Shown here: positions 374 to 64,000 of the stretch, piece after piece
Position numbering within the stretch: the first letter of the stretch is position 1
How the letters are laid out: each line of letters starts with the position of its first letter
Source: Thermoanaerobaculia bacterium
GTDB taxonomy: Bacteria > Acidobacteriota > Thermoanaerobaculia > Gp7-AA8
NCBI GenBank assembly: GCA_036389275.1
Contig: DASVQE010000052.1
Coordinates: forward strand, 33,680-97,679
DNA length: 64,000 bases
Direction: 5' to 3'
Program-made: the position numbers and the translations under genes
Notes under the pieces: model-generated
Told to the model about the DNA's origin: nothing
The model's database searches: none
What the model saw: only the letters and a program-made list of their open reading frames with translations

Positions 374-552
374 TGTCGAATTCTAACGGCAAACAAGCTC
401 ATGCTCTCGCTATAGCGTGCTCGACTATGCCGGAAAAGTGACTTGCTCAAAGCGGGCGCCGAGTCATAGAGTGCCGATCGCGACACAGAATCCCCAGGTG
501 CTGAAAAGCAGTCGGACACTCTGCAGTCCTCCCGAAAACCCTGCACGCGGAG

Positions 553-3500
553 GTGCCAGTGAAACGCTTCTTGAGCCCAATCCGCCTTCTTTCGTTCGCC
601 TGTTCAGTCGTTACAATAGTCGGGTTTGCGCCTTCGGCACGCGCAATCTGTGAGGCCGGATCGAGCCTTCCGGGTGTCACGCTGAACTATTCGGGACCGG
701 ACACCTTCGGGCACGGCACGCTGATGATCGGATATTCGTTTCCGAATACCGATGGCCCCCAACAACGGACCGTTCACCTGGTGTCGGATGATTCCCTCGT
801 CGCTTCCATCAGTCCCACTGAGGCCAGCGGTATCTGGACGCTCCCCTTCAACTTTACCTGCCTGCGTGGGGGATCACACTACGTAAAGGCACGCGCCGTC
901 GCGTGCAACGGGTGGAGCAAGGCTGATTTCGAGCGGTGGAGCAACGCCGTGACCGCCGACATTGTCAGCAGGCCTACGGCAAACCCCACGTACTCGGGCC
1001 CCGATGAATTCGGTCACGGCACGCTGACGGTCGATTACAACTTCCCGAATACCGATAGCGCCAGCCAGCGTGCGATCAATGTCGTCTCCGATGACCAATT
1101 GATGGCGGAGTTTTCGCCGACGTCGCAGAGCGGGACGTGGACGATTCCGTTCGACGTCACGTGCTGGCGCAAAGGGCAGCACTACATCAAGACGCGAGCC
1201 GTATCGTGCAACCACTGGAGTGATCCGGACTATGAGTATTGGAGTGCTCCCATCAACATTGATATCGACAGCCGGCCGGAAGCCACACCAACCTACAGCG
1301 GACCCGACGAACTAGGCCACGGCACGTTAACGGTTGCGTACAAATTCCCGAATACGGCCGGTGCTAATCAACGGGTGATCCATGTCGTTTCCGACGACCA
1401 GCTGATCGCCGAGTTCTCGCCTCCAACGCGAACCGGCACGTGGACTCTGCCATTCAACGTTACCTGCATGACCGGAGACCATTACATCAAAACGAGAGCG
1501 GTTGCCTGCAACCATTGGAGCGATCCCGACTTCGAGCATTGGAGCGACGCGATCAATGTGGCGCCTGACCATAAGCCATCAGCACAGATCACCGATGTCC
1601 GGAAAAACGAATCGGGTGTCTGGCAGGCGATCGTTCACTATCATTTCCCGCAAACCGACAACGCTTCGCAGCGCTCATTGAGATTGGAGTGGCAGGATAA
1701 CGGCGCGCTGATCGGAACCGTGGCGCCGGGCCAGGTAGAGGGAGATTGGGTGGTGGATCTTCCGGCGTGCGTTCCGGGCGAGCTCACCACCCTCCGGGTC
1801 ATTGCAATCGCGTGCGGCGACCAGCGCAACTCGTCGTCGAGAGCCGCCGGACTTCCTGAATGCGACAACGCCTGCTCGGTCGAGTGCGCCGACTGTTTTT
1901 CGAAACCGATTCGCTCGACGAACGGCAACATGCGGTTCAGTGACGCCGACCCGCTTCCCGGTGAGATCGTCACGCCGCTCGCGCGAACGTACAACAGCCG
2001 CGATCCTCGCATCGGTCGTTTCGGTCGGGGTTGGTCATCCATCTTCGACGCTCACCTCACCGCTCGCGGTGGCGCAGACGGCGGCGAGACCGTCCGGCTC
2101 ATCACCGCGACCAGTGACGTTTACGCGTTCGAGCAGAGTGGCGGCGCCTACGTGCAGACGTACCCGGCCGGCGAACGCGTTCCGAGCGTCCTCACCTACG
2201 ACGCCGCGCGCGGCCTCTTCGTGCATCGTCATGGCGGGAGCGCTACCGAAGAGTTGTACCGCGCCGCGGATGGCCGTCTGGTGGGAGTGTCCTCACGGCG
2301 CGAGGCCCTGCAGGTAGAGATCGCCTATGCCACGGATGCGACGCCGCAGCGCGTCTCCAACTCGCGCGCGAACTGGGCCTGGACGTTCAGTGTCGACGCC
2401 GCCGGACGTATAGCGCAAATCGCCGTAGAAGGAAGATCCGACCTCACCTGGACGTATGGGTACGACGCCGATGGCAACCTCACCACGGTCACCGCGCCGG
2501 CGAACGCGCCCTGGCGAACATACACCTACGGTGCTGCCGGGATGCTCGCCGCCTACGACGCGCAGCAGCGCTTGATCGAGTCCCATGCGTACGATTCGGA
2601 CGGTCGCGCCGTCAGCACCGCAAGCGATCGCGACGATGTGAGCGCTGTCTCGTACGGCCTTGCCGGACGCGTCGCCGGCGAGCTCATGACACGCGTCACC
2701 TACACCTCCGGGCGGACGACCGACTATTACAGCCGTTTTGTCGGCGGCAAGATGCGCACCGTCCAGGTAGACGGTTCCTGCGACTGCGGGACGGACGATA
2801 CTGTCTATGGCTACGACACGAACGGCCGCATTATTCGCGAACAGGATGCGCGAGGCTACATCACCGTCCGCCAGTTCGACGAGTCGAGTGGCAGACTGAT
2901 CTCCGTCGGGACCTCGTACCGTCCCGTTTCCTGTGATCCGGCAACCGATTCGACACGCTGCCGTCTCGACCCGTCCACAATTCTCACGACCACTCTGCAG
3001 GCCACGGCGGCGACGGACGTCGTGCAGTACACGTACGGCGACGCCGCATGGCCGGACCGGCCGACGTCGATGACGCGCACCAGTGTTCTGGCGCCCGCGC
3101 AGGTCACCACGACGTCGAGCGTCTTCGATCCGTCTACAGGCGTCACGTTGCAGGAAACGATCAGCGGCTGGACGAACCGCGGCGCCGGCAATGTGGTGGA
3201 AACCCGTACGACGACCCGAGCGCTTTACGACGGAGCGGAGACGGCGCTCTTCGATCCCTGCGGAGGAGCGTCATGCGCGTTCTCGCCTAGCTGGCTGGCA
3301 TTGCCGCAACCGTCGAAGCAGATCAAGCTCGTCGACGGGCCGAGGGACGGTGTCAGTGATCAGACGACACTCGTTTACTATCCGGTACACGCCTCCGTTC
3401 CTGCGCTCCTCCGCGGCCGGCTCGCGGCCTCGCGTAATGGCGCCGGGCATATCGTCCGCTTTGAAGCCTATGACGTCTTCGGCAACGCCACCCGAGTGGT

Positions 3501-6500
3501 GGACCCGAACGGCGTGGCCACCGAGACGGCCGCCGATGCGCTGGGCCGCGTACTGACCACGACGATCAAGGCGACCTCCGGCTGCGACACGACGATCGAC
3601 CCGCTCTGTGCCGATGATCTCGTGGCAGCACGGACGTACGCGCTCAGCTCCGGCGCCCTGGCGAATACCCGCCTCCCGGGAGGAGGTGTGAGCGTGTACG
3701 CCTATGACGTACGCGGGCGCATCACCATGCTGTCCCGCGGTGCTGACCTGAACGATCTTCGCGAACGTCTCGAATACGAGTACGACGACACGACCGGCGA
3801 GAAAAGGCTCGAGCGGTGGCTTTCTTATGAGAATGGTGGTTGGGTTGAGAAAAAGCGTGAGACCTACCACTACGACGCGGTCGGAAATCTTTCGGAAGTC
3901 GTTCATGGCGACGGCACGGCCGTGCATTATGCGTACGACGCGCAACGTCACGTCGTAGGGGTGCGCGATGAGCGGCACTCCGCGAATAACACCACTTACG
4001 CATATGATCCCGCGGGGCGCATTTCAACCGTAACCCAGACATTGGGAAGCGGCCAGGTCGTAACGCGGTATGCGTATGACTTGCGCGGGAACCTCGCCAG
4101 CGTGACCGATCCGAACGGCAATGTCACGACGTACAAATACGACGATTTCGGGCAGCTGCTGCAGCAAACGAGTCCCGTCACCGGGACCACGACCTATGCT
4201 TACGATCCTGCCGGCAACCTCACCCGCACGGTAGACGCGAACGGGAGCGTGTCGGTGAGATCATTCGATGCGCTCGGGCGTGTCATCAGCGCCACGTCAT
4301 CACGCCTGAACGCAACGGATTCGGTTCAATGGACGTACGACGAGAATCCGAATGGCGTCGGGCGTCTTTCCGGATTTACTGACCCGTCCGGCCAGGCGAG
4401 TTTCCGATACGACCGCCGCGGGCTGTTGTTGCGCGAGACTAAGCAGTTCGGCGCCGAGACTTATGTCACTACATACGGATACGATGCGGACGGGAACCGC
4501 AACCGGATCGTCTACCCCAGCGGCCGTACAGCGACCTACAGCTTCGATTACGCCGGGCGCCCGCTCACCGCGGCGGTGAACGGTGCGCCATTGGTTCTCT
4601 CTGCGTCGTACCTTCCGTTCGGTCCTGTCACCGCTACCACCTATGGGAACGGAACGGCACGTACCGCCACCTACGATGCGCGCTATCAGCTCCTCACGAA
4701 CGCGCTGGCAACCGCCAGTGGAGCGATTGCTTCTTACACCTACACGCATGACGCAGTCGGCAATGTCACCGGCATCCACGACGTCCTGGCACCGGGTTAC
4801 GACCGTACCTTTGGCTACGACGATCTCAATCGCCTCACCTCGGCCAATACGGGCGACGCTCTCTGGGGCACGGCTACATACTCCTATGACCCGATGGGAA
4901 ACCTCTTGACGTCGTCCCTCGGTTCTCTCACGAAGACGTTCAACTATGCCAATGCGTCGCCCAAACTGACCGCAGTCGCAACCAACGGCGCGCCGCAGGC
5001 GGTGACGTATGACGCGGCCGGTAATGAAACCGTGGTCGGGCCGGAGCAGTTTGTCTACGGCCCGCGTAATCTGCTGGTGCGCAACGACAACATCGAATAC
5101 GCGTACGACGCGCGCGGCGTGCGCGTGACGCAGAAAAGTGATGTCGTACGCGTGGCTTCACTGTCGCTGAACGCTTCGAGGATTCGTGGCGGCGAGGCGG
5201 GTGCGTTCACGATTGCACTGAGCGGTCCGGCGCCTGCGGGCGGCGTCGTCGTCGCGGTGACGAGCTCGAGTGCCCTCGTCACCGTGCCGAGCACGGTAAC
5301 GATTGCAGCCGGCGAAACGAGTGCCTCCGTCCCGTTCACGTCCGTTGCGGTCTCACAAGCGACGACGGTTCACCTGACCGCCACTCACTTTGGCGATATT
5401 TCGCAGGATCTCGTCCTGACGCCATCGTGTTTAGTCGATCGCGTGGAGATCCATGAAGCGTCGGTCACGGGGGGCCAAGCCGCGCATGGTGTCGTGTACC
5501 TCTTCGAGCAGGCGCCCACGGGCGGCACCGAGGTGACGCTTGCGTCCAACGCTGGTGCCGCGGTGGTGCCGCCGAGCGTGGTCATCGCCGCGGGTCAGTC
5601 CTCCGCGGAGTTTCCGATCGCGACCACTCCGGTCACTGCCGACACGACCGCACGAATCACCGCCTCACTCTGCGGTTCGGTATGGAGCGAATTTTCTGTC
5701 GCGGCACCCTCACTCGCCACGCTGGTTCTGCAACCCGCGGCCGTGGAGAGCGGCGCGGTGACTACGGCCACCGTTACGTTGACCGGCGCAGCACCGGCCG
5801 GCGGGATCGTGGTCCTGACATCCACAAGCGACTCGACGCTCGCTACAGTACCCTCCAGCATTGTGATTGCGGCGGGCCAGTCGGCCGGATCGTTTGCGGT
5901 GACCACGCGGCCGATCGACGAACCGGCGTCCGTCATTGTGTCGGCGTCGCGAGGCAACGTCACGAAGAGCGCGACCCTGGACGTCGCACGCTGCACGTTC
6001 GACGACGTTCCGCCGACGCTCCCGAGTGACGAGATCGTCTGGTTTGACGATGCACCGCCTGCAGGCGCAGTGCTCCACGAGTCCTGGACGTGGGACACCA
6101 CGAAGAAGGCGAGCGGTGTTCAATCGATGGACATTCCGCTTGCGAACGGATACAGCGGAAGGTGGTTTGAAAACGCTACGAATCGGCTGGTGGTCGCGGC
6201 AGGCGATCGGCTCTTCGTCTATGTTCTGGTCGACCCTTGCCACCCGCCGCGGGAAATTATCCTTGGCTGGAGTGACGGCGCCGTCGATCAACGTGCCTAT
6301 TGGGGCGAGGACCTCCTTCCTTTCAGTGCGGCCGGAACAGGCCGCGTGCGCATGGGCGACGTCCCCGAAGGCGGTGAATGGGTCCGTCTCGAAGTGCCGG
6401 ACTCGACGCTTCATCTCGCGGGCCGTTCGCTCAGTGCGATGGCGCTCGATATTTACGGCGGCCGCGCATGGTTCGATCGCGCAGGACGGATTGCGTGCAA

Positions 6501-9498
6501 TCCAGCTCCGGCCCCTCCTCCGGTATTCTTTCCGGACAATGAGAGTGTCTGGTTCGACGACGCCGTGCCTGCCGGCGCGATCACTCACGAAGTCTGGACC
6601 TGGGATACGGTCCAGCGTGCGAGCGGCACTGCGTCTCATGTAGTGAACGCACCAGCCGGCGCCGGCGGTCACTGGTTTGAAAATGCCAGTACGACGTTGA
6701 CCGTCCTTCCGGGTGAGGCGTTGTTTGTCTACGCGTACCTCGATCCCTGTAATCCGCCTCGGGAGATCATGCTCGGATGGAATGACGGGTCATGGGAGCA
6801 CCGTACCTACTGGGGCGAGAACCTGATGCCCTACGCCTCGCCCTCGGGGATGTTTCGCATCGGCGATCTGCCGCGGCAGACCGGTTGGGTGAGGCTGGAA
6901 ATGCCTGCGGATTTCGTGAACCTCGCGGGCAAGACGATCAGCGGCATGGCCTTTGACGTCTATGGTGGCCGGGCGTGGTTCGATCGCGTCGGTAAGATGA
7001 GTTGTGAGCAACCACACGCGGCAACTCCTCCACCTGCATCCGACGAAGTTCTGTGGGTCGACGACAGTCTGCCCAGCGGCGCCGTCGTAACGGGTTCATT
7101 GGAGTGGGACTCGGCCGAGCAGGCGTCGGGCAACAGTTCGTTGGTGGTCCGCGGCAACCCCGGAGCGCAAGGAGTCTGGTTCTGGCAAGCGACTGCGATG
7201 ACGCCCTCGGCCACGGAAAACCTGATGGTTCATGTCCTGATCGACCCATGTGATCCACCTCGCGAGATCATGGTGGGTTGGTACGACGGGTCGTGGGAAC
7301 ATCGAGCCTACTGGGGCGAAAACCTGATGCCGTATGCGACGCCCGCAGGAATGACGAAGTTCGGCGAAGTTCCTGTTGCGGGCGAGTGGGTGACACTGGA
7401 AATCCCGGCGTCGGCGCTGAACCTGTCGCAGCATGCAATTTCCGGAATTGCGCTAGACGTCTATGGCGGACGCGTGTGGTTTGACAGAATCGGGAAGCGT
7501 GCCTGTGCGCCGACGATCGCTGCGCCTGCGCCGTTCGCACCTGGTGAGGAAGTGTGGTTCGATGACAGCGTGCCATCGGGTGCGGTCACTCACGGCGAGT
7601 GGACTTGGGACGCCACGCAGAAAACCTCCGGCTCGTCGTCGCACACATGGACGTCGTTTCCGGAATGGAGCTGGCACTGGTTCGAACAGGCCGGCAGCGG
7701 GATGACGTTGAACGCGGGCGACAACTTGTTCGTCTACGCGCTCATCGACCCATGTGATCCTCCGCGCGAGATCATGCTGGGGTGGTTCGACGGCACGTCG
7801 TGGGATCACCGCGCATATTTCGGTGAGAACCTGATGCACGTCGCACCGGCCGCTGCCGAATTCGGAATGGGCGCAGTACCTGAAGGCGGGCAATGGGTGC
7901 GTCTGGAGGTACCCGCAACGATCGCCAACCTCGCAGGCCGTACGGTGACTGGAATGGCGTTCGATGTCTTTGGCGGGAAGGTGTGGTTCGACCGTGCCGG
8001 TAAATATTCGTGCGCGGCGGGCGTCGCTCCGCGCCCGGCCGACGACACGGAAGAGCGGGTGTGGGTCGAGGACCGGGTGCCTAACGGCGCGCGTTACTAC
8101 GGTCCGTGGGAATGGGACACAAACCAGAAAGCTGGTGGCACCAGGTCGCACTTCACGCCGCCGCTCGTCGGCTGGACCTGGCATTACTTCGAAGAGGCAA
8201 CCGAAACGCCGACGGTCGGAGCCGACGACGAATTGTTCGCCTGGGTCCTGGTCGACCCGTGTGACCCGCCGCGGTCCATCATGCTCGGTTGGAATGACGG
8301 GACGTGGGACCACCGCGCCTACTGGGGAGAAGACCTCTTCCCCGTTGCCTATGGCGGTCTGAATCGCGTGCGTGTGGGTGACGTGCCGGTCGCCGGACAA
8401 TGGGTGAAATTGCGTGTTTCGGCAGAGAGGATGGGTTTAGCAGGCAAGACCCTCAACGGAATGGATTTCGACACCTGGGGCGGAAAGGTCTGGTTCGACC
8501 GCGCGGGCGCTGAGGAGCAGAATCTGGAGCCGATGAGTGCGGACGCATTGCCCCCTCCGATGACATCGTCTACCGCCGACCGGCGCGTGACGTCTGCGTC
8601 GACGACGGAGCGAACGCTCCACTACCTCTACTCCCCTGAGCTCTCACTCATCGCCGAAACCGATTCAACAGGAAATCCAAATGGCGCCGTGACGTGGGAG
8701 TACATCTGGTTCAACGGCCAACCCCTCGCCCAAATCGAAAACGCCACCGGTGCGATCGCCTGGTACTTCAACGACCACCTCGGCACCCCACTCCTCCAGA
8801 CGGACGCCGCATCAAATGTGATCTGGCGCGCCGAATACGAACCATACGGCACCGTCCACACCCTGCGCGAAGGCCCCAATCGCCACCAACCCCTCCGTTT
8901 CCCCGGCCAGGAAGCGGAGGACCTCTCGGACCGGTCGTACAACATCTTCAGGTGGTACCGGGCGGGTTGGGGGCGGTATACGCAAGCGGATCCGATTGGC
9001 GTCGTAGGCAGAGAGTTTCCGTACGCGTCCGATAATCCCATCTTTAACAGCGACATGCTCGGCCTACTGGATACGGGAGCTCTGTTGCGGCGTCCCGTCA
9101 CGCGAGCTGTTTGTGAAGTCGCTGGCGAAACTGCCGGGTGGCTTGCAGGACGCGCGGCAGGGCTGATCACGATGCTGCTCAGCGCGAGTGATGCTAACCC
9201 AGTCGAATTTGAGGATCAGATTCGCCAGTGCGACACGTGCGTTGAGCGCCGCCGACAATGTGACGAGTTAAACACTGCCGTAGAAGAGGCGAAACGGCAT
9301 GTCGGAGATCTCGGAGCTTGCCGGGCCGGCATGAGCCGTTGGGAACTGCAGCAACGATATTCCGCCTGGCTTGCGCTGGCGACAGCCCGCGCTCGGCGCG
9401 ATGTGAAATGTTGGCGCGGTGGAGATTCAGGTCATCAGCAAGCGCAGGCGGATGCATGGTCGAATGTCGGCAATTGCGCGAGATTGTTGGGACTGTGA
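553..9498 (+). CDS. giant secreted RHS/YD-repeat polymorphic toxin (2981 aa) with a C-terminal toxin domain of unknown family
   Basis: Signal peptide [31 protein letters not shown]. An RHS start motif [13 protein letters not shown] is followed by many YD repeats such as [95 protein letters not shown] and [30 protein letters not shown]. The C-terminal RHS-associated core reads [34 protein letters not shown]...[41 protein letters not shown]. Start may instead be the in-frame GTG at 559, because GGAGG at 549-553 lies 5 nt upstream of it. Confidence 0.9.
   Translation: [2981 protein letters not shown]
650..1840 (+). repeat. four tandem ~110-aa N-terminal repeats of unknown family inside the 553..9498 CDS
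   Basis: Repeating block (T/N)YSGPD(T/E/L)FGHGTL...(Y/N)FPNT(D/A)...QR.I.VVSDD(S/Q)L.A.FSPT..SGTWT(L/I)PF(N/D)(F/V)TC..G.HY(V/I)K(A/T)RAV(A/S)CN(G/H)WS(K/D)(A/P)D(F/Y)E.WS seen at about 650, 980, 1310 and, degenerate, 1565. Two conserved Cys per unit. Confidence 0.7.
2020..5150 (+). other. RHS/YD-repeat shell region of the 553..9498 toxin
   Basis: Dense YD-repeat signature (Y.YD..G(R/N)L) throughout, beginning at FGRGWSS. Confidence 0.85.
5150..5990 (+). repeat. three tandem ~90-aa Ig-like/beta-sandwich repeats inserted after the YD region
   Basis: Three copies: [67 protein letters not shown], then [64 protein letters not shown], then [65 protein letters not shown]. Confidence 0.7.
6037..8510 (+). 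repeat. five tandem ~168-aa repeats (about 505-bp period) of an unrecognised Cys-containing domain
   Basis: Units start at about 6037, 6546, 7050, 7553 and 8060. Consensus read by eye: VWFDD..P(A/S)GA....W.WD......SG..S.........HWFE.A......G(D/E).LFVY.L(V/I)DPC(D/N)[9 protein letters not shown].DGSW(E/D)[11 protein letters not shown].......G..P..G.WVRLE.PA..LNLAG.T.(S/T)GMAFDVYGG(R/K)VWFDR(A/I)GK..C. Confidence 0.8.
8600..9063 (+). other. RHS repeat-associated core domain of the 553..9498 toxin, with a degenerate terminal cleavage motif
   Basis: [86 protein letters not shown]...[61 protein letters not shown]. The first DPIG motif is present (D-P codons at 8989-8994). The usual terminal DPxGL is replaced by SDMLGL. 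Confidence 0.8.
9064..9495 (+). other. C-terminal polymorphic toxin domain (~144 aa), family not recognisable
   Basis: [143 protein letters not shown]. No nuclease, deaminase or ADP-ribosyltransferase catalytic motifs that I can identify by eye. Confidence 0.5.
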
Positions 9499-15260: not shown

Positions 15261-18200
15261 ATGATCGTTACGTGGCCGGTCCGCTTCAGAAAGACACATT
15301 TGTTCCTGCTGCTCGTGCTGCTGGCGCTCTGGCCGGCGGCCGCGCGCGCGCAATCGTCGGACATCGCCACCGATGAGCTGCGCATCTCCGGCAGCGGCCT
15401 GACGCTCGACGACGTGGCGAAAGTCGCGTCGGTGAACATCCCCACGACGATCCAGACGCGCTTCGCCGGCTTGATCAACGACCAGGCGCCGGAAGTGCGC
15501 GACCTCAAGGCGGTCGGCGAGCTCACCGGCCCTTCGCTCACCACGCCGCTCCGGCTCGAAACCGAGCCGGGGCACGCCTTCCAGATCCCCGGCCTCGCGC
15601 TCGAGGGCGACTACCTCCTGCAGAACGTCCGGCTCATGCGCGGCGACACGTTCGTGCAGGCGTCGGCGAAACCGAGCGCGCTGATCAAGGTCACGACCAT
15701 CCTCGTCGCGGACGTCAAGATCACGCAGCTCACGCCCGAGCAGATCCGCGCGCGCGGCATCGTCATCGACGCCACGCACTTTGACGTCTACCAATACACG
15801 CTGACCTTCTACATCGAAGGGAAGCCGGTCGAGATCCCGTTCCCGGTGATCATCGACAAGACCAGCGGCGAGATCACGCTGCTGAGCGGCCCCGATGGAT
15901 ATGGCCTGACGAATCCGATCCCGCGCGAGCTGCCGCGGTGGGAGCCGCCGTCGATCTATGCGATCGGCTGGAGCGAAGACGGCGGCGAGGACGAACCGGA
16001 GGAGAACGAAAAGGAGCCGAATGAGGATGGCCCGACCATTCCCGCGGTGATCGTCATCCCGAACAGCGTCGGCGTGCTGCATCAGTTCTTCGTCGTATCG
16101 CTGAGCGTGCGCAACAACGCGCCGGCGGGATCGGCGATCCGCCTCTCCGACATCACGGCCACGATGCTGCCGCCGCCGGAGCTGCGCGTGGCGAAGACGC
16201 AGCCGGCGGTGCCGTTCGGAAGGCCGATCTCGCTCACCGATCCGAACACCGGCGCGACGTTCCTGATCGCGCAGGCGGAGGCGAAGGCGGAGTGGACGCT
16301 GGAAGGCCTTCGCGCCGGCACGCATGTGTTCGAGCTCGACCTCGCGGCCACGTATCAGGAGTCGCCCGCGGCTCCGGCCATTCCGATGCGCGCGCACACC
16401 CGGCACGCCATCACCGTCCACGACAACCGCTTCAACATCACCTTCGCGCATCCGGAGACGGTGCGCAAAGGGATCGACTACTCGACGTGGTCGTTCGTCA
16501 CGAACATGTCGGGAGCGCTGCAGACGCTGCATCTGCGCAGCGACCTGCACGCCTGCGGCGGCACCGGCACAGTGGGCAACGTCTGCCGCGTCGACGATGC
16601 CTTCGCGAACGTGCCGTCGTGCGAGGCCGAGCCGGGCGCGCGGCTCTGCCTCGTCGACGCGGTGAACGGCGTCATGCAGCTCGTGCTCGATCCCGGCGAG
16701 ACGCGCGGCGTCGAGTTCAAGCTGCGCTCCGGCGTGACCGGCTCGGTCTACGCGACCTCCGGCTCGTTCGACGAGCCGCTCACCGGATCGGTGCAGCTCA
16801 CCATGGGCGTGAGCGAGAGCGGAGTGCCGCTCTCGCCGGCGGTGCTGCTCATGCCGCACTACGCGCGCTATCTCGATCCGTCGTTCGTTTCCGACAACCT
16901 GCAACTGCTCGGCCTCGGCTACAGCGTGGCCACCGCTCCGATCAACGAGTACAGCGCGCGGCTGCCGCGCATCATCCGCTCGGACGTCTTCACCCGCGCG
17001 GTCGACATCTCGCGCGCGGGACAGCGCCTCTACATCGGCGAAGAGAAGCGTGAGGCGTTCACGCATCTCGCCCTCGACCTCCTCGGCAACGGCGAGCTGA
17101 ATCAGCTCTCCGAATACGACGCCCTGCGGCGGCGCGAGTTGAGCGGCTACGTGGCCGGGAAAGCGCTCGCGGCGCAGCTCTCCGCGGCGGCGCTGCCGGA
17201 CGCGGCGTCGTTCGATCGCTTCCTCTCCGACTTCGGCACCACCACCGCGCATCGCGAGTCGTATCTCGCGGCGCTGGTCCATGGCGCGGCCGCGGCGGGC
17301 GAGCGTCCGTACGCGATCCACGTGAAGAACATCGCCACCGGCGCGGCGCTCGATCTGCCAAACGAGCTGGCCACGTTCTCGCGGCGCGGCACGCGCGACA
17401 TCCCGTTCGGCGATCTCTCCAGCCTCACCAGCGCGGACAAGACGCGCACCGGCGAGCTCGCGCTGGTGGGCGCGTGGAAGGGTCCGTACGAGCTGACGGT
17501 GAAAGCGGCCGCCGGCGCGTCGTTCTCACTCGACGTGCTCCTGCCGGCGAGCGTGCCGGCGAAGAAGCGCCTGGTGCGCTTCCAGATCGACGCGATGCCG
17601 GCCGGCGACCTGACGCTCGTGGTCGATCCCGCCGCGCCGGCGCTCACGCTCGCCGGCGGCGGCCGCACGTTCACGCCGGTCAGTGATCGCGAGCTCGACC
17701 CGGCGCCGCTGCGCATCATCGGCGCGCGGCAGGACCTTCACCTCGACATCACCGGCCACAAAGTCGCGCTGCTGTTCAACCGCCCGCCGGACGAATCGCG
17801 CCTGCCGAGCGTGCGCGATCTCTTCCAGACGAAGGTGCATTTCAGCCAGGGCTCGATCGCGTACGACGGCCCGCGCCCGATCGACGCCGCCACGTTCCAG
17901 GGCGACGGCCGCACGGTCTACATCACCCATTCGCATGCGCTGCACGTCAACGCCAGCTACACCATCACCCCGAAACCGTTCCGGGATCCGCTGACCGGTC
18001 AGGACGTCTCGCTGCCTGCATTGCCGGCGGCGATGGTCAACGACATTCCGGCGGCGATCATCTACGGCCAGGTGCTGCGCGGCGACAACCATCCCGTGCC
18101 CGGCGCGCAGGTCGCGCTCTCGACGCATGGCGACCAGGACCCCGACACGCAGGGCGACGAGACCATTCAATACGACGTCGCGTCCGATCCCGACGGCGCA

Positions 18201-21200
18201 TACCTCTTCGAGTGCGTGCCGCGGAACTTCGGCACCGGCAACGGAACGTATCTGCTCTGGGCGACCGACTCGAACGGCAAGCAGACCTCCGCACAGGGTG
18301 CAGCGCGTCTCGCATACGTCGCCGATCGTGTGAACCTCGTCTACCTCGGCCGCGGACGCGCCGCCGGGCAGGTGCGCTACCACACCGGCGAACCGCTCGC
18401 GAACCGGCAGGTCGTGGTCGGCAGCACGATGTTCGGCGACGCGCGCAACGCCACCACCGACAGCACCGGCCACTTCGAAGTGGGAGACCTGCCGGTCGGG
18501 CCGCTGACGTTCAGCGTCTCCGACGCCGCGGGCAATTTCGCCTGGGCGGCGAACGAGATCGCCACCGCCGACTCGTCCATCGTGCAGGACCTCGTCATCT
18601 ACAAGCAGCCGTTCCCCGGAACCGGAACCGTGCGCGTCTTCGTCAAGCGTTCCGACACGCAGCAGCCGGTCCCCGGCGCGACGGTCGGCGTTCTTCGCGA
18701 AGGCGTGCAGGTCGGCCTCGTCACCACCGGCGCCGACGGGCGCGCCGAATTCACCAAAGTGCCGGCGGGATTCCTCTCGATCCTCGTGGCGGAGTGGGAC
18801 GTCTCGCGGCAGCTCGCCGCGGCGGACGTCGAGCTGACCAACGACGAAGTGGAGGACCTCACCTTCACGCTGAGCGTCAGCAACGATCCGCTCACCACGA
18901 TCACCGGCACGGTGCGCGAGGCCGATCCGGCGTTCCCGCAGGACGAGACGAAGGCGAAGCCGGTGGCGGGCGCGATCGTCGAGATCTACGGCCTCAATCC
19001 CGTCATCGCCGCACAGGACGGCTCGTTCGTCTTCACATCCGTCCCGGTGTCGAAGGCGGGCGCGGCGGTGCGCGCGCGGAGCCCGCTCTCCGGACGCGTG
19101 GCGACCCTCAACGTGCCGCGGCTCTCCGCATCGGAGACCGCGTCGATGCCGATCTACATCGCGGCGAACGCGGCGTACGGCAAAGGAACGCTGCGCGTCA
19201 AACTGCTCGATGCCGCCGGCAATCCGCTCGGCGGTGCAAGCGTCTTTTTCCCCGGATTCCCGCTGAAGTTCTTCAAGCCCGTCGCCGGCCAGACCGGCTC
19301 GTACGAGATGCGCGACCTGCAGACGAATCAAAAGTACGAGATCGTCGCGCTGCCGCCTTCGTCGATGGGCGACCAGTTCGCGACCGCGGAAGCGGAGGTT
19401 CTCTTCGACGGTCAGACCGCGCTCGTGCCGATGCGGCTGCAGGGTGCGGGCAAGGTGCGCGTCGACCTGAAAGCGGGCGACATCGCCGCGATCGGACGCG
19501 TGAAGATCCGCTACGCCGCGTTCGATTCGAAGGCGCAAGGTGTGGTCGACAAACTCCTTGAGCTCACCACCGATGACGGCAGCGGGAAAGCGGGCGTGGC
19601 GGTGTTCGCCGGCGTGCCCGTCGGCGCGTACGAGGTGTGGTCGGAGGACGCAGACCTCGGCTACGCGAATTACGAGAGCACCATCCACTACGACGGCGAG
19701 GTGACGGACGTTCATCTCGTCAGCAGGAAGCTCGCGGTCGTTCGCGGAACGGTGGTGGCGCTCGACGAGCTCACGCCGCAGCCGAACCTCCTCGTCACGC
19801 TCGACGACGGCGTCTTCAAGTACACCGCCGTCACCGCGGAAGACGGCACGTTCGAGCTCCGCAACATCCCCGGCGGAATCGGGTTCCGCATCTACGTCGC
19901 CACGACCGTCGGAGACACCTACCGCGTCGGCTTCATCGACGGCCGCACGCCGGAATCGGGCGGACTGTTGGAAGGCGTGAAGATCGTGCTCAAGAAGATC
20001 GGCACGATCCGCGGCAAAGTCGTCTACAAGGGCTACAAAGTCTTCGACCCGAAAGACGCGTCGAAGAACGTCGTCGATCCGACTCCGAACGATCTCTCCG
20101 ACAACGCGCCGGTGCCGCTGGCGTCGTTCACGCTGTCGGAGCTCGAGTTCCCGAACCGCAGCTTCGGAGAGCGCACCGAGCCGCGCTCGGCGGACCTCGG
20201 CGGCAACTTCCAGCTCAACGGCATCTTCGCCGGGCCGCTGCGCATCAGCGCCTGGTCGCGCGAGAACCTCGAGCTCACCGGCGAGTGGACCGGCGCGATC
20301 GCGGATGAAGGGCAGACCGTCGAAGCGTACGTCGGGATCGGCGCCGGCGGCGCGGGCCCGCTCACGGTCCGCGTCTACGATCCGAATCACGCCAACGAGC
20401 CGGTCTTCAACGCCGAGGTCAGCGTGTTCCGGCAGTTCAACGGAGAGTCGGTGCTGTTCGACTTCACCACCACCGACGCGAACGGCGTGGCCGTCTTTCC
20501 GCAGCTTCCCGCGGAGAAGTACCTGGTCCGGGCGTTCGCGAAGGTGACGGGCAACTCGGGATCGGCGGAAGTGACGGTCGATCCGATCGCCGGCGGCTCG
20601 ACGGACGTCCTGTTGAAAGTCAGCGGCAAAGTCACCGGCGTGCTGCGCGACGGCAACAGCGGGTTGGGCGTTGCCGCCGTTCCGGTGAGCCTCTACGCCG
20701 ACGGCTATTCGACGCGCGAGACGTCGGACGAACACGGCAACTACGAGTTCATCGGCGTGCGCCAGGGACGCTTCGTCCTCGACGCCATCGACCAGGCGTT
20801 CCGCCGCGCGCGCGCCGACGGCGAGATCACGCTCGCGCAGCCGGCGGCGAACATCGATCTCACCCTCGACCCGATCTACACGCTGCACCTGAAGGTCGTC
20901 TATCCCGCGGACGACGGCTCGCCGTCGTCCGTCGAAGTGCCGGCCTCGCAGGTGAGCGCGAAGCAGCGCTGCTTCGAGTACGGCTTCACCGAATTCACCC
21001 GCACCGTCCGGTGTGACTACGACCGCCGGCTGCAGGTGCCGGGAAATGACTTCCCGGGTCTGTTTCAAGACGCACCGGTCAGGCTGTCGATCGACGAGGT
21101 CGGAGGGAAAAAGCGGAACGTCCGCCTCGACTCGCGCTACCCGGCCGGCAGCACGGCCGAAGCGCCGCTCGTGGTGACGCTCCCGGCATCCGGCACGGTG

Positions 21201-24200
21201 CGCATCCTCGTGCGGCAGGCCGGCGGCAGCGAAGTCGCCAACGCGCACGTCCGTGTCTTTTCCACGGCCGGCGCGTTCGACGCGTACACCGACGCATCCG
21301 GCGTGGCGCTCGTGCCGGGCGTGCCGCTCGGCACCTTCACCGTCACCGCCGAAACGGTCGACGGCACGTTCAGCGTGCGCACCGGTGAGCAGGAGCTCAA
21401 GAGCCAGTCGGTGACGAAAGACCTCATCGTCACCCTCGGCGCGTTCGTCACGCTGACCGGACGGGTGATCAAGGAAGACGGCAGCGGTCCGGCCGTCGGC
21501 ACGCACGTGGTCGCGTCCTTCAACACCGATCGCGTCGATCTCATCACCGACGCGGAAGGCCGCTACCGCTTCGTCGGCGTGAAGGTCGACAGCGGACTGG
21601 TGACGCAGGTCCGGATCGAGTTCGTCGGCGAGGACGACGCCACTTCCGGCGGCGTGCTGACCGACACGCTCGCCACCGGCGACGCCGGCAAGGTGAAGGA
21701 CTACGGCGACTGGCGCCTCGACGCGACGGCGCCGCGCATCCTGTCCATCGATCCGGCCGACAACGCGCAGAACGTCTCGCCGGACGCGAAGATCAACATC
21801 GTCTTCAGCGAGAAGGTCCAGCAGGGCCTCTTCGAGATCTCCACGGCCGACAACGAGGCCGTGCAGTTCACGCAGACGAAGGTCGAGCAGAACGGCAAGG
21901 AGCTCTACGCGCTCACGCCGCTGCCGCCGAAAGACAATCCGCTGCCGCTGCGCAGCAACACGCTGTATCGCGTCGTCGTCAAACATTTCGCGGACTTTTC
22001 GGGACACGTGCTGGCGGACCGCGCCTTCAGCTTCGTCACGGCCGACTACATCGCGCCGAAGGTGGTGAAGGTCGCACCGGCGGTGACGCAGCCGGTGCAG
22101 CGATCCACGACCTTCGTGGTGACATTCAACAAAGCGATCTCGCGCGCCGCGCTCGAGTCGGGCGGCACGACCATCAAGCTCTATCGCACCGCTGGTCTCG
22201 CCGCCGACGCCGCCGTGCTCGGCGAAGTGACGGGCACGTGGTCGCTCGACACGCCGGGCACGGGGCTCTCCTTCGCGCCGGCCGACTTCCTGCTGGAGAA
22301 GTCGTTCTATCGCCTCGTGCTCAACGGCGTGCGCGACACGAACAACAACGTCTCCGAGCCGCTCCGCTTCGACTACCGCTCGTTCGACAAAGACGCGCCG
22401 TTCGTGGTCATCCCGTCGCCGGTTCCCGCCGGCTATCCGCTCGTGGCGGGCGTCGGCTACACGATCCATCCGGAGCTGCACGACGGCAGCGCGGCCGGCG
22501 CGCTGGCCGACGACGTGTCGCAGGTCGACTACTTCGTCACCGTCGACGGCGTGGCCAAGCCGCCCGTCTCCTTGCGCGTCGCGCCCTTCGACTACTACTT
22601 CGTGGCCGACCCGACGCTCACCAGCGGCACGCGCCGCATCACCATGCGCGCGCAGGCGACCGACGCCTCGCTGAACCTCGGCGAGATGAGCGCCGAGGTG
22701 AGCTGGGACGTGGTGCCGAACCAGGCGCCGAAGGCGCTCGGCCTCACGCTGGTCGAGCCCGATCGCGCGTTCGCGGGAAGCGACGTGAAGCTCCTGCCGT
22801 CGTTCACCGACGAAGGGACGTTCGTCTCGCTGCAGGCGCACGCCACGGCGCAGCGGAAAGACGGCACGACGTGGAGCGGCGATGCCGCGCCGGTCGAAGC
22901 GCGCCGCGACAAAGTCGATGCGGCGTGGACCTTCAAGCCGTCGTATCTGATCGTCTCGCTGCCGCGCGACGTGCAGGACGGCGCGGTGGTGAGCGTCACG
23001 CTCACCGCGACCGATGCCGCCGGAAAAACCGCGACGCTCAATCCGCCGTTCACGTTCACCGTCACCGCCGACACGGCACGTCCGACCATCCACGCGATGT
23101 CGCCGGCGTCCGACACCGAATTCCGGCGCGACGAGAAGTACACCATTCAGGCGCTGGTGAGCGACGGCGAGAGCGGCGTCGCCGAAGTGACGCTGAAGGC
23201 GGGCGACTTCTTCTCCGTGACCATGCATCCGGGTGAGGCGGGCGTGAGTGCCGGCTCGATTCCGGGGACGCTGAAGTTCGTCTCGCCGCAGATCACCGTC
23301 GTCGCGCCGAACGTCGACACGCGCGTGCCGATCGTGGCGACGGTGAAGGACGCGAACAACAACGTCACCACGCGCACCATCGAAGTGATCTACATCGGCG
23401 TGAATGATCCGTCCGCGCCGAAGGGCTCGTGGCAGTGTCCGGTGAACCGCGCCATCTGGCCGGCCGATCAGCCGTCGTTCGCGGCCACGCTCAGCGTGCA
23501 GGCCAGCGACGACATCGCCGTCACGAGCGTGCAGTTCGTCGTCCCCGGCCTGGCCGCGCCGGTGACCGCGACCGCGTCCGGGAACGGCTTGTATCAGGCC
23601 ACCGTCACGATGACGACGCCGAACGCGGCGTCGATGACGATCAAAGCGATCGTCAAGGACTCGGTCGAGTCGCACACGCTCGAGCTCCCGATCACCATCG
23701 ACCTCGTCCCGGTCGAGCGCGTCATCGACGGGCGCGTGCAGCCGGTCACCGCCGACAACCTCGCCGACTATCAGAACAGGAGCGTGATGGTGCGCGGCGC
23801 CGGCGCGGAGCTCGCGCTGCACGTGCCGGTCACGTTCGCAAACCTGCTCGTGCTCGAAGGCGCGCGCGTCTACAGCCTGCCGACGACGACTACGCTCGAG
23901 CGGAAGCTCACCATCGGCATCACCAACGCGATGTACGTCGACTGCGCCTCGAAGGTCGATCACGACAACGGCGGCTACCTCGGCGGCTGGCAGCACGAGA
24001 ACAACAGCAGCACGCGCAACGAGAGCGCGCGCGGCCGCACCGTCGGCAACGTCGCCGCCGGTGCGACGCCGCTGTCGTCGGCGAGCCACGGCGGCCGCGG
24101 CGGCGAGCGCTATCAGGGCGGCACGTCGAACGGAACCTACGGCTCGATCTTCACTCCGGCCGATCTCGGATCGGGCGGCGCCGGCGTTGCGGACCGCGAC

Positions 24201-63190: not shown

Positions 63191-63192
63191 CC

Positions 63193-64000
63193 ATGCCGGA
63201 GAAGCAGAAGGCGGTTGCGAGGATTTTGGCCGCGCAAACAGCGCAGGAAATGCGAGAGATTGCAGAGCGGTACGACATGATCGCGGGCGGGAAGATCGAC
63301 CTTCGCGATACCAGGTGCCGATTCAATCACGCTGAGATTGATCTTAAGGAATTCCTGCTCACCGGCTGTGATCTGTCGGGGTCGACTCTGACGAACTGCA
63401 TGGGAGAGGGCGTCAGCTTCGACGGGTGCAGGCTGAAGCAGGTTCGCATCACGGCCGAGAAAGGCAGGAAGGTGTCGTTTCAGGAAGCTTCGTTCAATGA
63501 AGCTTTTTTGGAGGACGTCACAATCGGTCCTCGCACACTCGATCTCTCTCGGACTATGTACCGGAAGGCGCGTCTGCGAAACGTCACCTTCACAATGGGA
63601 AAGCTTTTCAATGCGGATTTCACCGGCGCGCTCTTCGAGGATGTGTTTTTTCGAAGCGCTGAATTGAAGAGCGCAAGCTTCCGAGGGGCGAGTCTTACGA
63701 GAGTCTCGTTTGAAAAGGCAACGCTCGAGGACGCTGATTTCTCCCAGGCGGAGTTTCATCAAATGGAGCACTGGGGAGAGCCCGATTTTTCCGGCGCTAA
63801 AATCAGCGATGATCTGCGGTATAGGTACGGGATTGTCCGCGATCCGTCCTCAAAGATTGTTGCGCTCATCAATAGCGGCAGGTTCAATCAAGACGAAGCC
63901 GCTGTACTGAGCGCCTTTCTCGAGCGCAACAGAGACTTTCTCTCGAATCCCGAAGTGATGCTGATCGGGTCCGAGTACGATATCGACGCTGGCCTGTTCG
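63193..64000 (+). CDS. pentapeptide-repeat protein, candidate immunity protein (at least 269 aa; runs off the 3' end of the window)
   Basis: Own translation from ATG 63193, 2 nt after the toxin TAG, open to the window end: MPEKQKAVARILAAQTAQEMREIAERYDMIAGGKIDLRDTRCRFNHAEIDLKEFLLTGCDLSGSTLTNCMGEGVSFDGCRLKQVRITAEKGRKVSFQEASFNEAFLEDVTIGPRTLDLSRTMYRKARLRNVTFTMGKLFNADFTGALFEDVFFRSAELKSASFRGASLTRVSFEKATLEDADFSQAEFHQME... Tandem A(D/N)(L/F)xx pentapeptides. GC about 50-55%, well below background. Not in the supplied ORF track because there is no stop in the window. Confidence 0.75.
   Translation, partial: MPEKQKAVARILAAQTAQEMREIAERYDMIAGGKIDLRDTRCRFNHAEIDLKEFLLTGCDLSGSTLTNCMGEGVSFDGCRLKQVRITAEKGRKVSFQEASFNEAFLEDVTIGPRTLDLSRTMYRKARLRNVTFTMGKLFNADFTGALFEDVFFRSAELKSASFRGASLTRVSFEKATLEDADFSQAEFHQMEHWGEPDFSGAKISDDLRYRYGIVRDPSSKIVALINSGRFNQDEAAVLSAFLERNRDFLSNPEVMLIGSEYDIDAGLF

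What the first reader, a model, noticed from the sequence alone, without database searches (positions are those of the whole stretch)
553..9498. Sec-signal-peptide giant RHS toxin with no T6SS/T7SS/CDI/Tc partner genes nearby
The 2981-aa RHS protein starts with a classical cleavable signal peptide. The window contains no VgrG/PAAR/Hcp, LXG/WXG, CdiB/TpsB or Tc A/B-component genes. That places it with the Sec-exported, wall/surface-associated RHS toxins (WapA-like, teneurin-like), not the T6SS-delivered RHS effectors. It is much larger and more elaborately decorated than described WapA-type proteins.
Basis: partly seen in the sequence, partly recalled or inferred. Interest (0 to 1): 0.6.

Follow-up and report, generated by a model that had tools for sequence, protein, structure and literature searches.

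The report
Sec-exported RHS toxin with lectin-like insert
This is a real, intact 2,979-residue bacterial "cocoon" toxin gene from an uncultured Acidobacteriota bacterium; it carries an ordinary export signal, has no dedicated injection machinery nearby, has an unusual 1,160-residue arm of sugar-binding-like domains spliced into the cocoon, and belongs to an already catalogued class of toxins.

Summary
ORF 553..9498 is real, with a better start at GTG 559, and it is found identically in three public assemblies of a Thermoanaerobaculia MAG (NCBI HEX8170960.1). It begins with a canonical Sec/SPase-I signal peptide. No PAAR, VgrG, Hcp, LXG/WXG, TpsB or Tc genes occur from 10 kb upstream to 54 kb downstream.

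It is a complete RHS polymorphic toxin:
- four disulfide-bearing Ig-like repeats
- a DUF6531 domain
- the YD shell
- an RHS core with both catalytic aspartates
- a 143-aa Ntox16 toxin
- an overlapping DUF6714 gene that I identify as the immunity gene. An Ntox16 remnant sits directly upstream of DUF6714 homologues in two other loci.

The distinctive feature is a clean ~1,163-aa insertion at the shell/core junction. It holds three Ig-like-looking repeats and five jelly-roll domains with a CBM-like fold. These domains belong to an uncurated family of about 2,900 representative proteins. The closest homologue lacks the insertion.

The host is a diderm without wall-binding domains, so this is not WapA. 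It lacks NHL and FN-plug domains, so it is not teneurin-like in the strict sense. It is not larger than described WapA proteins. Sec-dependent RHS toxins have been catalogued since 2012. Verdict: a new variant of a known kind, of moderate interest. How it crosses the outer membrane is unknown.

The parts
549..561 (+). Ribosome-binding site GGAGG (549-553) and the favoured start codon GTG559
   Evidence: Sequence read directly. The 2979-aa product from 559 is the one on record in public assemblies.
559..645 (+). Sec / signal peptidase I signal peptide, MKRFLSPIRLLSFACSVVTIVGFAPSARA, with predicted cleavage ARA|IC
   Evidence: Hydropathy shows it is the only TM-like segment. Homologues have equivalent signal peptides followed by Cys at +2. 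There is no canonical lipobox. SignalP was not available.
646..1860 (+). Four ~101-aa Ig-like beta-sandwich repeats (motif F-P-N-T-D), each with one invariant Cys pair
1861..1902 (+). Cys-rich linker CDNACSVECADC
   Evidence: Sequence. A similar Cys-rich stretch occurs in P0121 and P0123.
1903..2118 (+). DUF6531 domain, probably the N-terminal plug of the cocoon (inferred)
   Evidence: Pfam PF20148, E 2.7e-9, aa 451-522.
2119..5133 (+). YD/RHS-repeat shell
   Evidence: PF05593 E 6.5e-53, TIGR01643, NF041261. phmmer matches solved Rhs cocoons 7q97, 8cp6 and 8qj*. Collinear with the insertion-less homologue in L003 up to aa 1527.
5134..6015 (+). First part of the insertion: three ~93-aa Ala/Val/Thr-rich repeats, presumed Ig-like (not modelled)
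   Evidence: Repeats read from the sequence. Absent from the L003 and L008 homologues. Present in P0298, P0311, P0362, P0009 and others directly before the jelly-roll repeats. No family hit.
6016..8526 (+). Second part of the insertion: five tandem ~163-aa CBM-like beta-jelly-roll domains (6016-6504, 6526-7011, 7030-7512, 7531-8019, 8038-8526)
8527..8622 (+). Pro/Ser/Thr-rich linker that ends the insertion
   Evidence: Alignment with L003 resumes at aa 2691.
8623..9066 (+). RHS-associated core (aspartyl autoprotease/plug). Catalytic D2813 lies in DPIGV and D2834 in DMLGL; predicted cleavage is after L2838.
   Evidence: PF03527 and TIGR03696. Alignment to RhsA 7q97 and Tse5. RhsA D1324, D1346 and W1350 from PMC8765631. 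Positions.
9067..9495 (+). C-terminal toxin. The Ntox16 domain is at 9253-9480 and the [DNE]xxH motif is DSGH at 9424-9435.
   Evidence: PF15523 at 32.8 bits, E 8.6e-8, on the isolated C-terminus, above the cutoff of 25. Family signature from PMC3482391.
9456..9971 (+). Immunity gene candidate, 171 aa, DUF6714 family, overlapping the toxin gene's 3' end by 43 nt
   Evidence: Gene call. 252 homologues, many carrying PF20461. Ntox16-like remnants lie immediately upstream of DUF6714 homologues in L007 and L008.

Best explanation
This is a Sec-dependent RHS (YD-shell) polymorphic toxin-immunity module of an uncultured Thermoanaerobaculia (Acidobacteriota) bacterium. It works without a T6SS, T7SS, TPS or Tc partner.

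Shown by sequence and homology. The precursor has an SPase-I-type signal peptide. Behind it come four Ig-like repeats with invariant Cys pairs, a DUF6531 domain, a full YD shell, and an RHS core that retains both catalytic aspartates. A 143-aa Ntox16 C-terminal domain follows, and an overlapping DUF6714 gene lies downstream. A clean ~1,163-aa block (three Ig-like-looking repeats and five jelly-roll domains with a carbohydrate-binding-module-like fold) is inserted exactly where the shell wall turns into the core. Several full-length relatives share this block, while the closest homologue lacks it.

Inferred. The protein crosses the inner membrane unfolded through Sec and folds and forms disulfides outside the cytoplasm. 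The cocoon encloses the toxin, which is cut free after L2838 but stays encapsulated. The eight inserted domains cannot fit inside the cocoon, so they project from it as a lectin-like arm. That arm would bind polysaccharide on the target cell, or on the producer's own surface or matrix, and so concentrate or retain the toxin. The Ntox16 domain is a predicted metal-independent RNase that has never been tested. It would poison non-immune neighbours, while DUF6714 protects the producer.

Unknown. How a ~315-kDa protein passes the outer membrane of a diderm, and how the toxin enters a target cell.
For: - ORF, start and public identity.
- Signal peptide features, and the absence of any other TM segment. 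Signal peptides in homologues.
- Invariant Cys pairs in the N-terminal repeats. Subfamily-specific Cys pairs in the jelly-roll repeats.
- Domain calls.
- Core aligned to RhsA and Tse5 with both aspartates retained.
- Insertion defined by collinear tblastn against L003 (q25-1527, then q2691-2866, with about 15 aa between) and against L008.
- The same architecture in P0298, P0311, P0362, P0299, P0360 and P0379.
- Jelly-roll, CBM-like fold. The domain co-occurs with GH9, subtilisin, discoidin and M23 secreted enzymes.
- Ntox16-DUF6714 adjacency in three independent loci.
- No partner genes in L001 or the window, and no conserved neighbour in L003 or L005.
- Sec/'T2SS' plus RHS as a catalogued class: PMC3482391.
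- Machinery-less Sec-targeted YD-shell toxins in Gram-negatives, including Acidobacteriota: PMC13018210.
Against: - No experiment supports any step.
- The signal peptide was judged by features only, because SignalP and LipoP were not available.
- No anchor was found (no lipobox, TM helix, PEP-CTERM or beta-barrel) and no outer-membrane route was identified, so surface display in a diderm is unexplained.
- A CBM-like fold does not prove sugar binding. The same fold occurs in MAM domains, Cry domain III and gingipain adhesin domains.
- The three Ala/Val-rich repeats were not modelled.
- Only about 74 kb of a MAG was inspected, so secretion systems encoded elsewhere cannot be excluded.
- The DUF6714 score of this protein against Pfam is below the curated cutoff (23.3 versus 27 bits), although its homologues carry the family.
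Confidence: 0.7

Rival explanations
1. It is a cargo of a specialised secretion machine (T6SS, Tc-type/T10SS lysis release, or similar) whose genes lie elsewhere in the genome, and the N-terminal hydrophobic stretch is not a functional Sec signal.
For: Most structurally characterised Rhs cocoons that match by sequence are T6SS effectors. Only about 74 kb of one contig was inspected. One public gene call (P0126) starts at Met58 and has no signal peptide.
Against: No PAAR, prePAAR, VgrG-binding, MIX, LXG or TcB-like region is present. The Met58 start would truncate Ig-like repeat 1, and the RBS sits before GTG559. Signal peptides are conserved in homologues. Invariant Cys pairs point to oxidative folding outside the cytoplasm. 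Related loci also lack such partners.
Confidence: 0.07
2. It is primarily a surface or matrix adhesin or cell-cell recognition protein (teneurin-like social function). The lectin-like arm and Ig-like stalk do the work, and the toxin is accessory or vestigial.
For: Eight or more adhesion-type domains are present. Two further giant Ig-array surface proteins sit in the same window. PMC13018210 raises this possibility for bacterial teneurin-like proteins.
Against: The autoprotease aspartates, the Ntox16 [DNE]xxH motif and an intact overlapping immunity gene are all retained. The C-terminal domains differ among relatives that share the same scaffold, which is the hallmark of an active polymorphic toxin.
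Confidence: 0.13
3. It is a toxin against eukaryotes (Tc-BC-like or insecticidal/protist-directed), and the CBM-like arm recognises eukaryotic glycans.
For: Jelly-roll domains of this fold occur in Cry toxin domain III and Vip4. RHS cocoons are used by Tc toxins (PMC8765631).
Against: There is no TcA or TcB partner, no SpvB/TcB N-terminal region and no beta-propeller. A tightly coupled immunity gene argues for bacterial targets and self-protection.
Confidence: 0.05
4. It is an assembly chimera or pseudogene, and the insertion is an artefact of metagenome assembly of repetitive DNA.
For: The insertion is repetitive (five repeats, 47-55% identical) and the source is a metagenome assembly.
Against: An identical 2979-aa product occurs in three independent assemblies, and a >=90%-identical one occurs in a JGI contig of 163 kb. 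The frame is intact. The repeats are too divergent to mis-assemble. Full-length relatives share the same architecture.
Confidence: 0.02

Closest known systems
Sec ('T2SS')-dependent RHS polymorphic toxins as catalogued by Zhang, Iyer, Aravind et al. 2012 (PMC3482391)
   Same: Signal peptide as the only trafficking signature, RHS repeats, a variable C-terminal toxin (Ntox16 is listed there with T2SS, T6SS and PVC export and RHS repeats), and an adjacent immunity gene.
   Different: That catalogue lists no immunity protein for Ntox16 and does not list Acidobacteria among its hosts. It does not describe an Ig-like/CBM-like array inserted between the shell and the core.
WapA of Bacillus subtilis and Streptococcus suis (PMC12704120; B. 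subtilis details from my own knowledge)
   Same: Sec signal peptide, RHS cocoon, C-terminal toxin with cognate immunity, no injection apparatus, and similar size (S. suis WapA-CT1 >3100 aa).
   Different: WapA proteins come from monoderms and carry N-terminal cell-wall-binding modules (CWB2 or LysM). In S. suis they depend on a cognate SrtB and a SecF-like protein. Here the host is a diderm, no wall-binding domain or sortase partner is present, and the decoration sits inside the RHS region.
Bacterial teneurin-like proteins (TLPs), Raoelijaona et al. 2026 (PMC13018210; PDB 9pt5, 9ifo)
   Same: Sec-targeted YD-shell toxins with polymorphic C-termini and immunity genes and no identifiable delivery machinery. 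They are found in Acidobacteriota among other phyla. There is a weak sequence match of the shell (E 2.8e-8).
   Different: TLPs are defined by the FN-plug + NHL + YD-shell superfold, and Gram-negative ones are predicted SPII lipoproteins. This protein has DUF6531 instead of an FN-plug, no NHL propeller and an SPI-type signal without a lipobox. By sequence its shell and core are much closer to T6SS-type Rhs proteins (E 1e-37 to 1e-24).
T6SS Rhs effectors (RhsA 7q97, Tse5 8cp6, Salmonella Rhs 8qj*)
   Same: Best sequence matches for the shell and core. The DPxG...DxxGL aspartyl autoprotease motif is conserved, and so is the encapsulated-toxin logic.
   Different: No PAAR, prePAAR or VgrG-linking N-terminus and no chaperone or VgrG genes nearby. 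A cleavable signal peptide and disulfide-type Cys pairs are incompatible with cytoplasmic loading onto a T6SS spike.
TcB-TcC cocoon of Tc toxins
   Same: Precedent for a large folded domain (the TcB beta-propeller) interpolated into the RHS shell sequence and exposed at one end of the cocoon.
   Different: A different domain type at a different position, no TcA partner, and a coupled immunity gene present.

Membership tests
RHS / YD-repeat polymorphic toxin | Array of YD/RHS repeats long enough to form a cocoon | tested here: met
   PF05593 E 6.5e-53, TIGR01643, NF041261. About 1,080 aa of shell align to solved cocoons.
RHS / YD-repeat polymorphic toxin | RHS-associated core with the PxxxxDPxGL-type aspartyl autoprotease motif | tested here: met
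   PF03527 and TIGR03696. D2813 and D2834 align with RhsA D1324 and D1346; the second motif reads DMLGL rather than DPxGL. Cleavage itself was not tested.
RHS / YD-repeat polymorphic toxin | Variable C-terminal toxin domain after the core | tested here: met
   Ntox16 at 32.8 bits. Relatives with the same scaffold carry unrelated C-termini.
RHS / YD-repeat polymorphic toxin | Cognate immunity gene immediately downstream | tested here: met
   The overlapping 171-aa DUF6714 gene. Ntox16 remnants lie directly upstream of DUF6714 homologues in L007 and L008. Neutralisation was not tested.
Sec-dependent ('T2SS') class of polymorphic toxins (Zhang 2012) | N-terminal signal peptide and no other trafficking domain | tested here: met
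   Signal-peptide features and homologue conservation. No trafficking domain in Pfam or NCBIfam. A formal SignalP score was not obtainable.
WapA (wall-associated protein A) | Monoderm (Gram-positive) host | tested here: not met
   Thermoanaerobaculia, phylum Acidobacteriota. Diderm status is from taxonomy and my own knowledge.
WapA (wall-associated protein A) | N-terminal cell-wall-binding domain (CWB2, LysM or similar) | tested here: not met
   No such Pfam hit even at E<=5. The N-terminal repeats are generic Ig-like folds.
Bacterial teneurin-like protein (TLP) | FN-plug + NHL beta-propeller + YD-shell superfold | tested here: not met
   No NHL or TEN_NHL hit and no FN-plug hit; DUF6531 is present instead. 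Definition from PMC13018210.
T6SS Rhs effector | PAAR, prePAAR or VgrG-interacting N-terminus | tested here: not met
   No hit. The N-terminus is a signal peptide followed by Ig-like repeats.
T6SS Rhs effector | Linked vgrG, hcp, Eag chaperone or T6SS core genes | tested here: not met
   None from -10 kb to +54 kb. The rest of the genome was not visible.
Tc toxin BC component | TcB N-terminal/SpvB region, beta-propeller and TcA partner | tested here: not met
   No such domains or neighbouring genes.
CDI/TPS (CdiA) and T7SS LXG/WXG toxins | TPS secretion domain with a CdiB/TpsB partner, or an LXG/WXG100 N-terminus | tested here: not met
   No hits in the protein or in neighbouring genes.
CAZy carbohydrate-binding module | Beta-sandwich/jelly-roll fold of CBM type | tested here: met
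CAZy carbohydrate-binding module | Demonstrated carbohydrate binding, or sequence membership of a defined CBM family | not testable with these tools
   No sequence-level match to any Pfam CBM model. Identity to structural matches is 5-15%. Binding requires experiment.

The most novel reading that the evidence does not exclude
The Ig-like/CBM-like array spliced into the shell-core junction is a built-in receptor-binding arm. It would let a Sec-exported RHS cocoon find and intoxicate target cells with no injection machine at all, a lectin-guided, stand-alone delivery mode for RHS toxins in diderm bacteria. The ~163-aa jelly-roll would then be a new carbohydrate-binding module family, shared with about 2,900 secreted enzymes and toxins of Acidobacteriota, Verrucomicrobiota and Gemmatimonadota.
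Probability: 0.25. Interest if true: 0.65.

Novelty: new variant of a known kind. Interest (0 to 1): 0.4.

Why it matters
How Sec-exported, machinery-less YD-shell toxins (WapA, bacterial teneurin-like proteins) reach and enter target cells is an open question. The 2025-2026 papers on those systems acknowledge this. This subfamily places a large, modular, lectin-like arm of variable copy number (2-5) at a defined site on the cocoon, and its closest relative lacks the arm. That makes a natural with/without pair for testing whether glycan binding provides targeting or retention. The analysis also exposes two unannotated families:
- a widespread CBM-like domain with about 2,900 cluster representatives, and
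- DUF6714 as the likely immunity partner of the uncharacterised Ntox16 toxin.
It shows as well that Thermoanaerobaculia encode several giant Sec-targeted RHS proteins side by side. None of this changes the basic classification, so the value is moderate.

Tried and rejected
- An exact look-up of the 2981-aa version from GTG553 found nothing. The 2979-aa version from GTG559 is on record.
- A genome-contig scan with aa 2330-2840 found no confirmed relative, so organism identity came from cluster names instead.
- A look-up of the minus-strand ORF 63187..63771 found nothing, so the region past 64,000 could not be inspected.
- The afdb50 fold library was not available.
- Pfam and NCBIfam at permissive thresholds gave nothing for the N-terminal repeats, the three Ala/Val-rich repeats, the jelly-roll repeats or the 6725-aa protein's C-terminus.
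- The promoter/terminator scan was no better than shuffles.
- Lipoprotein (SPII) reading considered and rejected. The only Cys in the signal region (C15 of the called protein) has S-F-A at -3 to -1, only about five hydrophobic residues before it and a strongly hydrophobic stretch after it.
- PEP-CTERM, T9SS CTD and T1SS C-terminal signals considered and rejected, because the C-terminus is the toxin.
- Literature searches for DUF6714 and for RHS plus carbohydrate-binding modules in Acidobacteria returned nothing relevant.
Full report
**1. Observation**

The window contains an uninterrupted plus-strand ORF from 553 to 9498 (2981 codons). The sequence just upstream reads GGAGG (549-553), then 5 nt, then GTG559. 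An exact look-up of the product starting at 559 (2979 aa) finds it on an ENA metagenome contig (ERZ27253125 k141_577635, 151.6 kb), on a Logan assembly (SRR10948745) and in NCBI as HEX8170960.1, 'MAG TPA: RHS repeat-associated core domain-containing protein [Thermoanaerobaculia bacterium]'. The version from GTG553 is not on record.

A JGI gene call for a >=90% identical protein (P0126, 2924 aa) starts at internal Met58 and has no signal peptide. I reject that start for two reasons. It would cut into the first Ig-like repeat, and homologues have signal peptides at the equivalent place.

The N-terminus MKRFLSPIRLLSFACSVVTIVGFAPSARA|ICEAG has basic residues, a hydrophobic core and an A-x-A site. 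It is the only transmembrane-like segment in the whole protein. There is no canonical lipobox. SignalP could not be run, so the signal peptide rests on these features plus conservation.

**2. Surroundings**

The 10 kb upstream (L001) encodes the following:
- methyltransferases
- a peptidase S41
- AraC and TetR regulators
- an HlyIII protein
- a 1070-aa BNR/CarboxypepD_reg protein
- small hypothetical proteins

Downstream lie, in order:
- a 171-aa gene that overlaps the RHS stop by 43 nt
- two tiny ORFs
- a LytS-type kinase and a LytTR regulator
- a DUF4386 protein
- an esterase
- a 274-aa secreted hypothetical protein
- two giant genes, 15261..42959 (9232 aa) and 43013..63190 (6725 aa)

Nothing resembling PAAR, VgrG, Hcp, LXG/WXG, TpsB/CdiB or TcA/TcB is present. 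It could not be extended to the rest of the contig or the genome.

The host class belongs to Acidobacteriota, which are diderms. That last point is from my own knowledge and was not tested here.

**3. Anatomy**

Residue numbers use the 2981-aa numbering.

| Residues | Feature |
|---|---|
| 3-31 | Signal peptide |
| 32-436 | Four ~101-aa repeats |
| 437-448 | Cys-rich linker |
| 451-522 | DUF6531 |
| 523-1527 | YD shell |
| 1528-2690 | Insertion |
| 2691-2838 | RHS core |
| 2839-2981 | C-terminal toxin domain |

- **Shell.** It is closest by sequence to T6SS-type Rhs cocoons (7q97, E 6.7e-37). It is only weakly similar to the solved bacterial teneurin-like proteins (9pt5, E 2.8e-8).
- **Core.** It aligns to RhsA and Tse5. 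D2813 (in DPIGV) and D2834 (in DMLGL) occupy the positions of RhsA's catalytic D1324 and D1346. Cleavage is therefore predicted after L2838, matching RhsA W1350 (PMC8765631; positions).
- **Toxin.** The C-terminal domain contains an Ntox16 domain that scores 32.8 bits, E 8.6e-8, against a cutoff of 25. It carries the family's [DNE]xxH signature as DSGH. Zhang et al. 2012 list Ntox16 among predicted metal-independent RNase toxins. They give T2SS, T6SS and PVC export, RHS repeats and no known immunity protein (PMC3482391).

**4. The insertion**

tblastn of the protein against the closest homologous locus gives a collinear alignment. That locus is L003, with the same signal peptide, Ig-like repeats and DUF6531, at 36-47% identity. 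Query aa 25-1527 align first and aa 2691-2866 follow, with only about 15 codons between them in L003. L008 behaves the same way. The window's protein therefore carries a clean ~1,163-aa insertion at the point where the shell wall passes into the core.

The first ~290 aa of the insertion are three Ala/Val/Thr-rich ~93-aa repeats. They look like bacterial Ig-like domains but were not modelled and match no family.

No Pfam or NCBIfam model covers the domain. A profile search of 1.84 billion cluster representatives finds 2,900 proteins at E<=1e-3 and 1,445 at E<=1e-30. In the word-indexed search the domain occurs in tandem arrays, often at the extreme C-terminus. The carriers are secreted GH9 cellulases, subtilisins, discoidin-domain proteins, M23 peptidases, PQQ dehydrogenases and others from Acidobacteriota, Verrucomicrobiota and Gemmatimonadota. 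It also occurs immediately before the RHS core in many RHS fragments.

Among longer representatives, P0298 (2881 aa), P0311 (2836), P0362 (2503), P0299, P0360 and P0379 repeat the whole architecture. They have a shell, three Ig-like-looking repeats, two to five jelly-rolls and a core. Several start with a clear signal peptide, and two have the same N-terminal Ig-like repeats. The insertion is thus a stable feature of a subfamily with variable copy number, not an assembly artefact.

P0009 (L005) is a 1191-aa protein. It begins near the start of the insertion and runs through three jelly-rolls and the core to a different C-terminus, with no shell upstream. It may be an orphan or recombination cassette.

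**5. Immunity**

The overlapping 171-aa gene has 252 homologues, many carrying PF20461 (DUF6714). Its own Pfam score is just below the cutoff, at 23.3 versus 27 bits.

In L007 a DUF6714 homologue lies in a cassette array downstream of an RHS gene. Directly upstream of it is an uncalled RHS-core remnant plus an Ntox16-like segment, 59% identical over 79 aa. In L008 an Ntox16 C-terminal remnant runs into the start of the DUF6714 gene. A third homologue, in Paraherbaspirillum (L006), is an orphan.

Three independent Ntox16-DUF6714 adjacencies make a toxin-immunity pair the most economical reading. I found no paper mentioning DUF6714.

**6. Mechanism**

Section 3 establishes the parts list and their order, and sections 4 and 5 establish conservation of the catalytic and signature residues, the insertion boundaries, the fold assignments and the gene neighbourhoods.

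The rest is inferred:
- **Export and folding.** Sec export is followed by folding outside the cytoplasm. Cys pairs are invariant in the N-terminal repeats. Subfamily-specific Cys pairs occur in four of the five jelly-rolls, and close pairs occur in the shell.
- **Encapsulation.** The toxin is enclosed and cut free, as in RhsA and TcC.
- **Projection.** The eight inserted domains project from the cocoon. [quoted passage not shown]
- **Arm function.** The arm binds polysaccharide for targeting or retention.
- **Toxicity.** The toxin acts as an RNase.

Two steps remain unknown: how the protein crosses the outer membrane and how the toxin enters the target. The same gap is acknowledged for WapA (PMC12704120) and for bacterial teneurin-like proteins (PMC13018210).

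**7. Comparison with known systems**

The protein works like a Sec-dependent polymorphic RHS toxin. [quoted passage not shown]
- **WapA.** Not a member. The host is a diderm, and there is no wall-binding module, no cognate sortase and no SecF-like partner.
- **Teneurin-like proteins.** Not a member as defined in 2026, because there is no NHL propeller, no FN-plug and no lipoprotein signal.
- **T6SS, Tc, CDI and T7SS cargo.** Not a member on every defining feature that could be tested.
- **Size.** The neighbouring RHS protein in this same window is 6725 aa.

**8. Other context**

The RHS gene and its immunity gene have much lower third-position GC than the neighbouring giants. Values are 0.72 and 0.63, against 0.92 and 0.89. 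This suggests relatively recent horizontal acquisition of the whole module.

**9. Verdict**

The feature is real and the negative context is real. The class is known, and the architecture is a new variant. It has a lectin-like multi-domain arm inserted at the shell/core junction, an N-terminal Ig-like repeat found in only four other proteins, and an Ntox16-DUF6714 pair. Interest is moderate at 0.4. It would be higher only if the arm proves to be a self-sufficient targeting device.

Noticed in passing
window 43013-63190 (+): A second, much larger Sec-signal RHS toxin of 6725 aa (NCBI HEX8170970.1, annotated only as 'Ig-like domain-containing protein'). It has the signal peptide MRPGSSFAFSAVAAVAAALVLSFAAPLAAQ|TP. 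About 4,600 aa of Ig-like arrays follow (Glucodextran_B, Big_13, Big_5, Big_3_x), then DUF6531, YD repeats and a canonical core (...DPVGY...DPTGL|C). The ~300-aa C-terminal domain matches no family. An Ig-like-looking ~140-aa segment also sits inside its core region (aa ~6190-6330). GC falls to 0.55-0.60 from 62.3 kb to the window end.
   Followed up: partly
window 15261-42959 (+): A 9232-aa secreted protein with a signal peptide, CarboxypepD_reg, Big_5, Big_6 and many LVIVD/beta-propeller repeats but no RHS. It ends 53 nt before the 6725-aa RHS gene, so the two may form an operon. A 274-aa secreted hypothetical protein (14422-15246) lies just upstream.
   Followed up: partly
window 6016-8526; alignment A1; proteins P0001-P0120, P0262-P0380: The ~163-aa jelly-roll repeat defines a large uncurated domain family: 2,900 cluster representatives and no Pfam or NCBIfam model. 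It occurs in tandem arrays at the C-termini of secreted GH9, subtilisin, discoidin, M23 and PQQ-dehydrogenase proteins of Acidobacteriota, Verrucomicrobiota and Gemmatimonadota. It is a candidate new CBM family.
   Followed up: partly
window 9253-9971; L007 7446-8504; L008 2206-3749: Ntox16 toxin domains or remnants sit directly upstream of DUF6714 genes in three independent loci. Ntox16 has no assigned immunity protein in the 2012 catalogue, and no paper in the searched library mentions DUF6714.
   Followed up: yes
L005 10001-13576 (P0009, 1191 aa): A protein that starts near the beginning of the insertion (Ig-like-looking repeats), continues through three jelly-rolls and the RHS core to a different C-terminus, and has no YD shell upstream; the upstream genes are on the opposite strand. 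It may be an orphan or recombination cassette that includes the insertion.
   Followed up: no
window 553-9971 versus 15261-63190: Third-codon-position GC is 0.72 for the RHS gene and 0.63 for the immunity gene, against 0.92 and 0.89 for the two neighbouring giant genes. The toxin-immunity module looks compositionally foreign.
   Followed up: partly
window 10610-12432 (+): A LytS-type histidine kinase (His_kinase + HATPase_c) and a LytTR response regulator lie 640 nt downstream of the immunity gene on the same strand. Any regulatory link to the toxin locus is unknown.
   Followed up: no
window 553-730; P0126: Public gene calls disagree on the start. NCBI, ENA and Logan use GTG559 (2979 aa, with signal peptide). 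JGI uses internal ATG at Met58 (2924 aa, no signal peptide), which would hide the export signal from automated surveys.
   Followed up: yes
L003 10001-15684: The closest homologue is called as two genes (608 aa + 1286 aa) that overlap by 4 nt. This suggests either a frameshift or sequencing error, or a genuinely split RHS gene.
   Followed up: no
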